Part shown: positions 6,001 through 9,000 of the stretch, one piece after another
Position numbering within the stretch: position 1 is the first letter of the stretch
How the letters are laid out: each line of letters begins with the position of its first letter
Source of the DNA: Escherichia coli
GTDB taxonomy: Bacteria > Pseudomonadota > Gammaproteobacteria > Enterobacterales > Enterobacteriaceae
Assembly (NCBI RefSeq): GCF_017348835.2
Contig: NZ_CP071375.1
DNA length: 64,000 nucleotides
Direction: 5' to 3' (one strand)
Made by a program: the position numbers

Positions 6001-9000
6001 CGGCGCTCACCATAACGGCCAGTCCTCGTTCAGCAATCAATGCTGAAATAGCGGCGAATACGGTCAGGGGAGCGAAGAGCATGACGTAGCCAGTGAGCTT
6101 TAACATGGCATGTGCCAGCGAATCTAAGGCGTGAACGATGGCGCTGCCTTTCTCGCCAATCGCCGTCAGGCTACAGCCGAGGAAAATTGAGAACACCACG
6201 ATTTGCAAAATTTCATTGTGCGCCATGGCATCGACAATGCTGGTGGGGAAAGCATGCGAAATAAATACTTTTAGCGTAAAGGGTTCTGCCGCGACCACTC
6301 CGGTGGTTTCGGCACCGTGTGCAACAAAATTAATTCCTGTACCTGGCATGAAGAAATTTACCGTTATCAAGCCTAAGGCAATTGACAGCAATGAGGCGCA
6401 AATAAATAAAAAGAGTGTTTTAGAAAAAATACGACCAAGGGCTTTAGCATCGCCCATTTTAGCAATACCTACCACCAGGGTAGAAACCACTAACGGAGCG
6501 ATAATCATTTTTATCAGTCGTAAGAAAATCGTCGTGAATATCGATATTTCTTGCGCATAGAGTTTTGCTGTTTCCGGTGAAGCAGTGTTATTGAGCACTA
6601 CGCCGATAATCATTCCAAGTACCAGCGCCAAAAGAATCATCGTGGTTAAACTTATTTTCTTCATTTTTTCCTCCATCAGGTGCACGGCGATAAATCAGAA
6701 TCAGGAGAAGTAGATGCCTGAATAGAGATTCAGGCATCTACCTGCTATTACAACCTTACAAATAGCTGAAGTGTTGAACTGCAATAAGTGACGGGATGTC
6801 AGTTGGCTAAAAGTGTTCGGATTTTTACAAATCGAAACTCATATTTAATAAAGGTGCGTGTTGCTGTGCACCATAGACATCATTGTCACCTACATTCCCG
6901 GAGATAATATCTCGTGGCATGACGATTTTTACTGCGTTAGAAGGATCAAACCAGACAATACGATGAATAAAGTCAGGTCCAACATGATATAAGCGCGCAA
7001 TCAGTTCTGGGGTTAATTGCCCTGATGATTTAACTCGCTCATAGTTTTCTTTGGTTTTAAATAAAATATCTAAAACCAGTTCGTAAGGTCCGGCATTTTT
7101 CGAACGAATGACTTGCGCCAGTGAGACAATTGACTGTTTCATGCCTGAACTCCTTCTGGCGTCACCTGTTCAATATGGAAATCAAAACGCAGAGCGTCGT
7201 TGGCTTCAATCAGGTGATATATGGAAAATTCGTATACCGGCCCGCCCTGGATATCAGAAGGGGAGAACGGGAACGCCAGATTGCCTGCGGTAGCGATGCG
7301 GTTTTCATAGCCGTAGTGCAGCATGGTAGAGCGCACCAGCGAGCAAACGCTATTGGCAATTTCCTGGGTCGGTGCAACTACATCAAGAACAATTCCCAGC
7401 TCATGCCCGGCAGTTTGCATCGGTTCATGGTCTCCCATCACCCCGTTTTTGCCGTACAGGTGGAAATTGATGCGAATGCTGTCATCGTCTAACGACAGGT
7501 TACGCGAAACGCTGGTTTTGACTTCATCGATGATTTTATCGATCCCGGCGATCATGATCGGGTCGCGCGTTCCGGCGATGGTCAGACAGCGGAAGCCCAC
7601 CCGTCGTGCACCTTCCAGTTTCAGGGCATACGGCGTTTCTTCATGCTTAGAACCGCTGACGTACACTTCGCCGTCATTGACCGCTTTAAATGTGCAGCCT
7701 TTCAGGTTCAACACGCCGCCAGGTCCTGGCAGGAAGTAGGGATCGGATTTCTCATACAGTGTGTGTGCAGCTGCTGACGTTTCGGTAAATTTACGCTTCG
7801 GATTAAATGTCTTCAGCGTAAAGCCGTTGTCATCAATGATGCCCATCGCACAGTCAGAGCCTGAGCCGGGCGTTGCAGCGATTGCCGCGCATTCAAGGAT
7901 TTTCCCACAATGCAGCGCCAGACCTTCATCAAAGCCTTGCATGATCGGGAGCGCTGCAAAGCAGGCCGGGTCGTAAGCGCGCCCGCCCAGCACCACTTGC
8001 GCGCCTTCTTTCAGCGCCCGCTGGAAGGGTTCGATGACCATTTGCGCAACGATATACGTACTTTCGTCAATCGCGTCGTGGGTTAACGGCGGGACAAAAT
8101 CCAGCGCCGTGATTTTGCCGTTATCCAGTGCCTGGTGGACGATGGCTTTGTCAACGTCTGCCGGGATCAACGCCATCGAGAACGAGAGGTGCTCTTCCTG
8201 GGCAATCTCATGAATTATTTCTCGGCACCACTCCAGGTGTGGTGCGGCACCAGAACCGCCGGCCGTTCCGATCACCACCGGTATATTATTTTGCACGCCT
8301 GCGGTGATCATATAGCGCAGATCGCGCTTGACTCCTGCGCGATCGGTAAATGGTTTGCCTGCCCCGAGGTAGTGGGGGCCTGGATCGGAAGAGCCTGCAT
8401 CAACGGCGATCAGATCGGGCGATTCTGCCATCGCTTTGCGGAAGCTCTCTTCCGGGAATCCATACCCGAGGATTGCCGTTGGCGATAAGACTTTAAAAGA
8501 ACGAGCCATTTGTTAATCCTTAGCCTGCAACAGCGCGATAGTACGATTCATTTCGTTGAAGACGATATCGAGGCCTTCGTCAAAGCCCATCCCTGGCTTT
8601 ACCAGCATACGCATAGGGCGAGCGGCAAGGGCGACGTGGACACAGGTGCGGGCACTGACATCAGTTTCATTGCAGGTGCCGCCCTGGTACGCTTCCATGC
8701 TGTGGCTGTTGCAGTAAAGAACCGCATCGACGATGTTGTGAATACTGCCCAGATCTGGGGTTTTGATTTGTACCATGTGACAACTGGCGGCATCAGTGAA
8801 ATCAACAATATCCTGGTAGGTGTTACACCATTCATCGGCCACAATTTTCACGCCGGAACCGAGGCGCGTCAGCTCTTTGGTAATCGCGGTCAGCAGGCGA
8901 ATTTGATCGGGCTTGTTACCGGCATCGACCGGTCCTTCAATGTAGAGCGGCAGGCCTTGCGCTTCTTTTTCCAGGCTGGCGATGTATTGCGCACAGCGAA

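What the first reader, a model, noticed from the sequence alone, without database searches (positions are those of the whole stretch)
6825..8509. Two translationally coupled proteins of unknown function inside the methylaspartate operon: candidate missing pathway enzyme
A 456-aa and a 105-aa ORF (4-nt ATGA overlap) sit between the methylaspartase gene and the transporter gene, co-oriented and tightly packed with enzymes of known function. The operon contains no citramalate lyase or other obvious enzyme to process (S)-citramalate or to link the pathway to central metabolism. This conserved pair is the most plausible carrier of an uncharacterised step (hydratase, lyase, CoA-independent cleavage or racemase-type activity).
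Basis: inference. Interest (0 to 1): 0.55.

Follow-up and report, generated by a model that had tools for sequence, protein, structure and literature searches.

The report
E. coli citramalate lyase CmlAB genes

Summary
Minus-strand ORFs 7139-8509 (456 aa) and 6825-7142 (105 aa) overlap by ATGA. They lie between methylaspartase and a transporter gene in an E. coli glmS-glmL-glmE-mal-X-Y-transporter-fumD-cobO operon.

The pair is not uncharacterised. It matches PDB 9erq/9evf chains A and B over their full length, at 92.3% and 84.6% identity. The depositors named these "Citramalate lyase, subunit A (cmlA)" and "subunit B (cmlB)". The structures are an AMPPNP-citramalate complex and an ADP-pyruvate complex, released October 2025. 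A 2026 preprint uses Raoultella cmlAB in vivo as an enzyme that cleaves citramalate directly to pyruvate and acetate.

RefSeq, Pfam and NCBIfam still call the pair AtuA-family and DUF4387.

How the nucleotide acts is not settled here. I infer ATP-assisted cleavage through an acyl phosphate.

This strain's allele carries Gly158Val at a nearly invariant glycine, found in 2 of about 900 E. coli genomes, and may be impaired.

The parts
7139..8509 (-). cmlA, large subunit of citramalate lyase (456 aa; Pfam AtuA/DUF1446)
6825..7142 (-). cmlB, small subunit of citramalate lyase (105 aa; DUF4387)
7139..7156 (-). cmlA/cmlB junction: Shine-Dalgarno GAAGGAG (7156-7150) and ATGA stop/start overlap (7142-7139)
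   Evidence: Read directly from the sequence. The 4-nt overlap is kept in 51 of 65 evaluable loci.
8036..8038 (-). Codon 158 of cmlA, GTC (Val) in place of the nearly invariant GGC (Gly): a rare lineage-specific missense allele
   Evidence: Gly in 80/80 loci, in 87/89 family members and in the solved enzyme. It is the single difference from other E. coli. The exact 61-mer occurs in only 2 of 903 E. coli genomes.
8513..9754 (-). mal, methylaspartate ammonia-lyase; stop codon 3 nt before the cmlA start
   Evidence: NCBIfam TIGR01502, E=1e-163. RefSeq annotation.
9754..11199 (-). glmE, glutamate (methylaspartate) mutase subunit E
   Evidence: TIGR01503, E=6e-261.
11218..12606 (-). glmL, mutase accessory/reactivating protein
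   Evidence: TIGR01319 / NF040745.
12606..13055 (-). glmS, mutase subunit S (B12-binding). The longest ORF runs to 13118, but the family match and RefSeq start at Met22.
   Evidence: NF002612 matches residues 22-168. RefSeq CDS.
5384..6664 (-). Dicarboxylate/amino acid:cation symporter (GltP/DctA-like), presumed glutamate uptake
   Evidence: NCBIfam DctA/GltP matches below the curated cut-off. RefSeq CDS start at 6664.
3624..5276 (-). fumD, class I fumarase acting as mesaconase (mesaconate to (S)-citramalate); supplies the CmlAB substrate
   Evidence: NF011921, 1271 bits, above the cut-off. Biochemistry of the O157:H7 orthologue in PMC4682846.
3012..3614 (-). cobO/cobA, cob(I)alamin adenosyltransferase (makes the mutase coenzyme)
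   Evidence: TIGR00708 / NF004637.
2982..3008 (-). Intrinsic terminator closing the operon (11-bp stem, 9 G-C pairs)
6712..6747 (-). Hairpin in the 160-nt cmlB-transporter spacer, without a T-run; role unknown (possible mRNA processing or stability element)

Best explanation
The two ORFs encode CmlA and CmlB, the large and small subunits of one heteromeric citramalate lyase. It is the last enzyme of the methylaspartate (mesaconate) pathway encoded by this E. coli island. The pathway runs: glutamate to (2S,3S)-3-methylaspartate (GlmSE, with GlmL and CobO), then to mesaconate plus ammonia (Mal), then to (S)-citramalate (FumD), then to pyruvate plus acetate (CmlAB).

Unlike the clostridial citramalate/citrate lyase, CmlAB needs no acyl-carrier subunit, no CoA thioester and no Cit accessory genes. 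The solved orthologue instead holds an adenine nucleotide next to the substrate.

My inferred mechanism, which is not shown, has three steps. ATP phosphorylates the C4 (-CH2-COO-) carboxylate of citramalate to an acyl phosphate. This makes the alpha-carbanion accessible, so the C2-C3 bond breaks by a retro-aldol reaction into pyruvate and enzyme-bound acetyl phosphate. The phosphoryl group then returns to ADP, or acetyl phosphate is released to acetate kinase. Either way the net reaction is energy-neutral: citramalate gives pyruvate plus acetate.

The overlapping ATGA and the strong Shine-Dalgarno couple translation of the two subunits.
For: Shown:
- Full-length identity of 92.3% and 84.6% to PDB chains named citramalate lyase subunits A and B.
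- The entry titles are 'Citramalate lyase - AMPPNP - citramalate complex' and 'Citramalate lyase - ADP - pyruvate complex'.
[quoted passage not shown] It shows cmlAB-dependent, isotope-confirmed flow of mesaconate carbon to acetyl-CoA in E. coli.
- In 80 loci from Proteobacteria, Riflebacteria, Spirochaetes, Lentisphaerae, Holophagae and others, mal precedes cmlA in 77, cmlB follows in 77, and glmE is present in 72. Most misses are contig ends.
- 17 of 18 long family representatives are natural CmlA-CmlB fusions in gene order.
- The junction overlap is conserved.
- Kronen & Berg 2015 found no citramalate lyase activity from the citrate, isocitrate or methylisocitrate lyases of E. coli. They flagged this DUF1446 gene downstream of mal.

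Supporting the inferred ATP chemistry:
- A non-hydrolysable ATP analogue was used to trap the substrate, while the product complex holds ADP.
- The family-invariant residues sit in beta-strand/Gly-rich-loop/helix motifs of the N-terminal alpha/beta domain, for example GTAGGSGAAPH with invariant G87, plus D42 and R177.
Against: - No primary paper on CmlAB could be found in the searchable library. The enzymology rests on PDB names and titles and on one preprint that used the enzyme as a tool.
- That preprint never mentions ATP, and it reports acetate, not acetyl phosphate, as the product handled by Acs.
- ackA or pta is near cmlAB in only 1 of 80 loci.
- The E. coli enzyme itself has not been assayed. 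Kronen & Berg could not find conditions under which the O157:H7 operon is expressed.
- This allele carries Gly158Val at a nearly invariant position.
Confidence: 0.9

Rival explanations
1. The enzyme and net reaction are the same, but the nucleotide is only a structural or allosteric ligand. Cleavage would be a direct, metal- or acid/base-assisted retro-aldol through an aci-carboxylate, as in isocitrate lyase, with a conserved Cys or His (for example H200, C207) protonating the acetate carbanion.
For: The preprint describes direct cleavage to acetate with no ATP requirement mentioned. The family keeps a near-invariant H200/E206/C207 cluster in an 'HCGKILEC' motif. There is no ackA/pta linkage.
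Against: The depositors used AMPPNP to capture the substrate and obtained ADP with the product. That is the usual design when gamma-phosphoryl transfer is part of the turnover. There is no fold relationship to the isocitrate lyase/PEP mutase superfamily or to DRE-TIM lyases.
Confidence: 0.3
2. In this particular strain the pair is a decaying or hypomorphic copy. Gly158Val in an active-site-side loop cripples CmlA, so the island no longer completes the pathway.
For: Gly158 is conserved in 80/80 loci and in 87/89 family members down to 30% identity. The Val allele is in 2 of 903 E. coli genomes, both pig isolates. In the model, residue 158 lies between strand 150-155 and helix 159-167, at the C-terminal edge of the parallel sheet where the other conserved loops lie.
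Against: Both ORFs are otherwise intact and full length, and all other invariant residues are kept. The AF2 model remains very confident around residue 158 (block pLDDT 97-98). No functional data exist for the position.
Confidence: 0.25
3. The pair does something other than citramalate cleavage in E. coli. Candidates are an AtuA-type role in acyclic terpene catabolism, a second methylaspartase (as some database records name it), or an accessory factor for Mal or glutamate mutase.
For: RefSeq names the large protein 'acyclic terpene utilization AtuA family protein'. Some records call close homologues '3-methylaspartate ammonia-lyase'.
Against: 92% identity to the solved citramalate lyase in the same operon context. 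No atu/liu genes are nearby. Kronen & Berg note that the methylaspartase label is given 'for unknown reason'. The true Mal is the adjacent gene.
Confidence: 0.03

Closest known systems
CmlAB citramalate lyase of Klebsiella/Raoultella (PDB 9erq, 9evf; 'Cml' of Raoultella planticola in bioRxiv 10.64898/2026.01.16.699985)
   Same: Two subunits of 456 and 105 aa, 92.3% and 84.6% identical. The predicted fold is the same. The gene order is the same: glmS-glmL-glmE-mal-cmlA-cmlB-transporter-...-fumD-cobO (an extra stretch of about 1.1 kb lies between the transporter gene and fumD in L007). The 4-nt junction is the same. 9erq_A is 100% identical to the product encoded in Klebsiella michiganensis DSM 25444 locus L007.
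   Different: 35 substitutions in CmlA and 16 in CmlB. One of them (G158V) is at a nearly invariant site and is peculiar to this strain lineage. The E. coli enzyme itself has not been assayed.
Classical citramalate lyase / citrate lyase complex (CitD acyl-carrier, CitE, CitF, plus CitC/X/G) of Clostridium tetanomorphum and relatives
   Same: Same net reaction ((S)-citramalate to pyruvate plus acetate) and the same place in the methylaspartate pathway (PMC4682846).
   Different: No sequence or fold relationship, no acyl-carrier subunit, no thioester cycle and no accessory genes in the operon. CmlAB binds an adenine nucleotide instead.
AtuA of the Pseudomonas acyclic terpene utilisation cluster (Pfam PF07287, function unassigned)
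   Same: Same Pfam family. Many family members fuse the CmlA-like and CmlB-like parts into one chain. The Atu pathway also contains an acetate-releasing cleavage of a 3-hydroxy-3-alkyl acid (HIHG-CoA).
   Different: The Pfam match is distant (E=1e-16, residues 63-393). The genomic context and the presumed substrate differ. The HIHG-CoA lyase step is currently credited to LiuE.
Amino-acid kinase family (aspartokinase, N-acetylglutamate kinase, glutamate 5-kinase, carbamate kinase)
   Same: These enzymes use ATP to phosphorylate a carboxylate to an acyl phosphate. There is weak structural resemblance of about 120 residues of CmlA to the kinase fold, and of CmlB to aspartokinase ACT domains.

Membership tests
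CmlAB-type (AtuA/DUF1446 + DUF4387) citramalate lyase | Full-length sequence similarity of both subunits to the solved enzyme | tested here: met
   421/456 and 88/104 residues identical, no gaps, E=6e-292 and 1e-56.
CmlAB-type (AtuA/DUF1446 + DUF4387) citramalate lyase | Same three-dimensional fold for both subunits | tested here: met
CmlAB-type (AtuA/DUF1446 + DUF4387) citramalate lyase | Two adjacent, co-translated genes (or one fused gene) encoding the large and small parts | tested here: met
   ATGA overlap here and in 51/65 loci. 17 of 18 long representatives are natural A-B fusions.
CmlAB-type (AtuA/DUF1446 + DUF4387) citramalate lyase | Genomic association with methylaspartase/glutamate mutase and/or a mesaconase | tested here: met
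   mal upstream in 77/80 loci, glmE in 72/80, a class I fumarase-like gene in 52/80. The Holophagaceae locus L079 pairs cmlAB with a two-subunit Fe-S hydro-lyase only.
CmlAB-type (AtuA/DUF1446 + DUF4387) citramalate lyase | All family-conserved residues retained | tested here: inconclusive
   All invariant and near-invariant positions are kept except Gly158, which is Val in this allele. The effect is unknown.
CmlAB-type (AtuA/DUF1446 + DUF4387) citramalate lyase | Catalysis of (S)-citramalate to pyruvate plus acetate; nucleotide binding | not testable with these tools
   Known only for the orthologue, from PDB ligand complexes and in vivo use.
Classical CitDEF-type citramalate/citrate lyase | Homology to the CitE/CitF subunits and the CitD acyl carrier | tested here: not met
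   No NCBIfam hit at all. The only Pfam hits are AtuA and DUF4387.
Classical CitDEF-type citramalate/citrate lyase | Accessory genes citC/citX/citG for the prosthetic group in the cluster | tested here: not met
   None among the annotated genes between sucD and cydA.
Pfam AtuA (PF07287) / DUF4387 (PF14330) | Significant match to the family HMM | tested here: met
   PF07287, E=1e-16 (residues 63-393); PF14330, E=8.4e-39 (residues 6-101).
Isocitrate lyase/PEP mutase or DRE-TIM (HMG-CoA lyase-like) C-C lyases | TIM-barrel fold of those superfamilies | tested here: not met

The most novel reading that the evidence does not exclude
CmlAB, and by extension the whole AtuA/DUF1446-DUF4387 family (more than 2300 clusters at 50% identity), could be a previously unrecognised class of C-C lyase. 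Such enzymes would use ATP as a recycled cofactor. They would transiently phosphorylate a free -CH2-COO- group to an acyl phosphate, so that acetate can leave as a stabilised carbanion. The thioester of classical citrate-type lyases would thus be replaced by a phosphoanhydride. If so, Pseudomonas AtuA would be the dedicated 3-hydroxy-3-isohexenylglutaryl-CoA:acetate lyase of terpene catabolism, a role never assigned to it. Separately, the Gly158Val allele in this window would be a natural loss-of-function variant.
Probability: 0.3. Interest if true: 0.7.

Novelty: already known. Interest (0 to 1): 0.25.

Why it matters
In 2015 the fate of citramalate in the enterobacterial glutamate pathway was an explicit open question (Kronen & Berg, PMC4682846). 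This gene pair is the answer. It completes a B12-dependent route from glutamate to pyruvate, acetate and ammonia that is carried by about a fifth of complete E. coli genomes and, per that paper, by most O157:H7 strains.

The practical value here is annotation. RefSeq, Pfam and NCBIfam still label the pair 'AtuA family' and 'DUF4387', and some records mislabel it as methylaspartase. Genome-scale metabolic models of these strains therefore lack the reaction.

The enzyme is also useful for pathway engineering, because it cleaves citramalate without CoA. The unexplained nucleotide points to unusual chemistry that may extend to a large, otherwise unassigned protein family.

Tried and rejected
- NCBIfam gave no hit for either protein, so curated family models do not yet cover them.
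- Nine literature searches were made. Eight sought a primary CmlAB paper using citramalate lyase, DUF1446, DUF4387, cmlAB, the PDB codes, AtuA plus citramalate, the methylaspartate pathway, all 2025+ papers with 'citramalate', and citramalyl phosphate; the ninth was on AtuA and the acyclic terpene pathway. No primary paper was found. Only Kronen & Berg 2015 and one 2026 preprint that used the enzyme turned up.
- A Berg-lab 2025 paper on methylsuccinate (PMC12290011) does not mention the enzyme.
- I tested whether ackA or pta travel with cmlAB, which would favour released acetyl phosphate. Only 1 of 80 loci has one, so the test is uninformative.
- The context of the Accumulibacter locus L052, which has cmlAB without mal or glm, could not be interpreted.
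- I considered and rejected several alternative identities: a hydratase (FumD does that step), a racemase, a second methylaspartase, and a glutamate mutase accessory factor (GlmL is present).
- Model coordinates are not exposed by the tools, so I could not map conserved residues or Gly158 onto the ligand sites.

Full report
OBSERVATION

The window is E. coli chromosome. Positions 6700-8600 are 100% identical to the pig isolates PE164 and F2_81. On the minus strand there are ORFs at 7139..8509 (456 aa) and 6825..7142 (105 aa). They share ATGA at 7142-7139. GAAGGAG lies 7 nt upstream of the second start.

The pair sits inside a co-oriented run of genes. NCBIfam and RefSeq identify the rest as follows:
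- glmS (12606-13055)
- glmL (11218-12606)
- glmE (9754-11199)
- mal (8513-9754)
- a GltP/DctA-like symporter (5384-6664)
- the class I fumarase fumD (3624-5276)
- cobO (3012-3614)

A strong terminator closes the run at 3008-2982. The island lies between sucD plus a LysR-family gene and cydA.

IDENTITY

Pfam places the large protein in AtuA/DUF1446 (PF07287, E=1e-16) and the small one in DUF4387 (PF14330, E=8e-39). NCBIfam has no model for either.

A sequence search of the PDB was decisive. Both proteins match chains A and B of entries 9erq and 9evf over their full length, at E=6e-292 and 1e-56. The depositors call these chains "Citramalate lyase, subunit A (cmlA)" and "subunit B (cmlB)". Exact identity is 421/456 and 88/104 residues. 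Chain A is 100% identical to the gene product of Klebsiella michiganensis DSM 25444 (L007).

AlphaFold models of the E. coli proteins are confident (pLDDT 96.4 and 88.2), and they superpose on the solved chains:
- CmlA to 9evf_A: Foldseek TM 0.97, E=1e-96.

The entry titles are informative:
- 9erq: "Citramalate lyase - AMPPNP - citramalate complex", released 2025-10-22.
- 9evf: "Citramalate lyase - ADP - pyruvate complex", released 2025-10-08.

LITERATURE

Kronen & Berg (2015, PMC4682846) described this E. coli O157:H7 cluster. [quoted passage not shown] They tested citrate, isocitrate and methylisocitrate lyases for citramalate cleavage without success. They concluded that the fate of citramalate "is still unclear", and they could not find conditions under which the operon is expressed.

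[quoted passage not shown] Growth of an acetyl-CoA auxotroph on mesaconate depended on the plasmid. Labelling confirmed carbon flow into acetyl-CoA, and Acs was up-regulated to capture the acetate.

I found no primary paper on the enzyme in the searchable library.

COMPARATIVE EVIDENCE

A scan of one genome per GTDB species returned more than 570 relatives. The best 80 are at least 60% identical and come from Enterobacterales, Betaproteobacteria, Riflebacteria, Spirochaetes, Lentisphaerae, Holophagae and others.

Counts among the 80 loci:
- mal immediately upstream of cmlA: 77
- cmlB immediately downstream: 77
- glmE: 72
- glmL: 66
- glmS: 64
- a class I fumarase-like gene within 10 kb: 52

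Most absences are contig ends. There are two real exceptions. L052 (Accumulibacter) could not be interpreted. L079 (Holophagaceae) follows cmlAB with a two-subunit Fe-S hydro-lyase of the fumarase/mesaconase type but has no mutase. That is a mesaconate/citramalate module on its own.

The 4-nt cmlA/cmlB overlap is kept in 51 of 65 evaluable loci. The mal-cmlA gap is at most 9 nt in 55 of 57.

At 50% clustering the family has 2364 representatives at E<=1e-3. Of the 18 listed representatives longer than 500 aa, 17 carry a CmlB-like domain C-terminal to the CmlA-like part. These fusions independently indicate that the two products work as one enzyme.

MECHANISM

Three things are shown, all for orthologues: the net reaction, the two-subunit composition, and binding of an adenine nucleotide together with substrate or product.

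The rest is my inference. A free acetate carbanion is a very poor leaving group. Classical citrate and citramalate lyases solve this with an acetyl thioester on an acyl-carrier subunit. CmlAB has no such subunit and no Cit accessory genes.

An ATP analogue was used to trap citramalate, and ADP accompanies pyruvate. This suggests that the C4 carboxylate is phosphorylated. The retro-aldol step would then yield pyruvate and acetyl phosphate. The phosphoryl group would go back to ADP, either on the enzyme or through acetate kinase. This keeps a fermentation pathway energy-neutral.

Observations that fit this:
- The family-invariant residues (D42, G87, R177) and the near-invariant ones (D63, D180, H200, E206, C207 and others) lie mostly in loops after beta-strands of the N-terminal alpha/beta domain. 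One example is the Gly-rich loop GTAGGSGAAPH.
- CmlB has two invariant motifs, RSKNxGPYE and DxYGAQQHxPLL.

Observations that do not fit, or that leave the question open:
- The preprint mentions no ATP.
- ackA or pta is not linked to cmlAB (1 of 80 loci).

A direct, nucleotide-independent retro-aldol with an allosteric nucleotide therefore remains a live rival.

A STRAIN-SPECIFIC CAVEAT

Codon 158 of cmlA is GTC (Val) in this window. It is GGC (Gly) in other E. coli, in all 80 loci, in the solved enzyme, and in 87 of 89 family members down to 30% identity. The exact 61-mer occurs in only 2 of 903 E. coli genomes with a match.

In the model, residue 158 lies between strand 150-155 and helix 159-167, on the edge of the sheet that carries the other conserved loops. 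This allele may be impaired. No data exist on the position.

COMPARISON AND NOVELTY

The pair is an orthologue of a solved and named enzyme, in an operon already described for E. coli. It is unrelated in sequence and fold to CitDEF-type lyases, to isocitrate lyase and to DRE-TIM lyases. It belongs to the AtuA Pfam family, whose founding member has no assigned reaction.

The finding is therefore already known. Three things remain open: the role of the nucleotide, the physiology in E. coli, and whether the chemistry extends to the AtuA family.

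Noticed in passing
window 8036-8038 (codon 158 of cmlA, minus strand): Gly158Val (GGC to GTC) at a glycine conserved in 80/80 orthologous loci and in 87/89 family members. The allele occurs in only 2 of 903 matching E. coli genomes (PE164 and F2_81, both from pigs). It may be a hypomorphic or inactivating variant.
   Followed up: yes
window 24964-25686 (lysT-valT-lysW-... tRNA array), 4th gene at 25280-25355: The array has 6 tRNA genes instead of the 7 annotated in strain PE164; a 79-nt unit is missing. The 4th gene is a chimera. 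Its first 7 nt (GGGTGAT) come from tRNA-Val and the rest is tRNA-Lys(UUU). This creates G5-G68 and A6-C67 mismatches in the acceptor stem, and the Rfam score drops to 68 against 79 bits. It is either a recombination product or an assembly collapse. An Rfam RtT hit (25287-25453) overlaps it.
   Followed up: partly
window 13001-16000: An AT-rich stretch (35-37% GC, against about 50-55% in the flanks) lies between glmS and cydA. It holds two minus-strand orphan ORFs, 13614-14036 (140 aa) and 14118-15062 (314 aa). RefSeq annotates both as hypothetical, and neither has a significant Pfam domain. It is probably horizontally acquired DNA adjoining the glm/mal island, and it includes the operon's promoter region.
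   Followed up: partly
window 6712-6747 (minus strand): A 14-bp perfect hairpin (GTAGATGCCTGAAT-CTCT-ATTCAGGCATCTAC) lies in the 160-nt spacer between cmlB and the transporter gene, with no T-run. It could be an mRNA processing, stability or attenuation element that splits the operon into two expression units.
   Followed up: no
window 12606-13118 and 5384-6685: The longest-ORF starts are misleading. The glmS family match begins at Met22, so the real start is 13055 (149 aa). The transporter most likely starts at ATG 6664, behind GGAGG, and not at GTG 6685.
   Followed up: yes
window about 51200-61500: A lambdoid prophage remnant (int, xis, cII, cIII, kil, ninE/F/G, sieB, ral) sits next to ybhC at the classical lambda attachment region. 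It is interrupted by an IS3-family element whose frameshift pseudoknot Rfam detects at 53375-53491 (ALIL).
   Followed up: no
L079:9633-13764 (Holophagaceae MAG): Here cmlA-cmlB is followed by an unknown 323-aa gene and a two-subunit Fe-S hydro-lyase (fumarase/mesaconase type), with no glutamate mutase or methylaspartase. This looks like a stand-alone mesaconate/citramalate utilisation module.
   Followed up: partly
E. coli genome collection: Of 1126 places carrying the cmlAB region in complete E. coli genomes, one is on a plasmid. One genome has two copies.
   Followed up: no
window 23899-24037: Rfam finds the CpoB/ybgF RNA thermometer (142 bits) in the tol-pal-cpoB region, as expected for E. 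coli.
   Followed up: no
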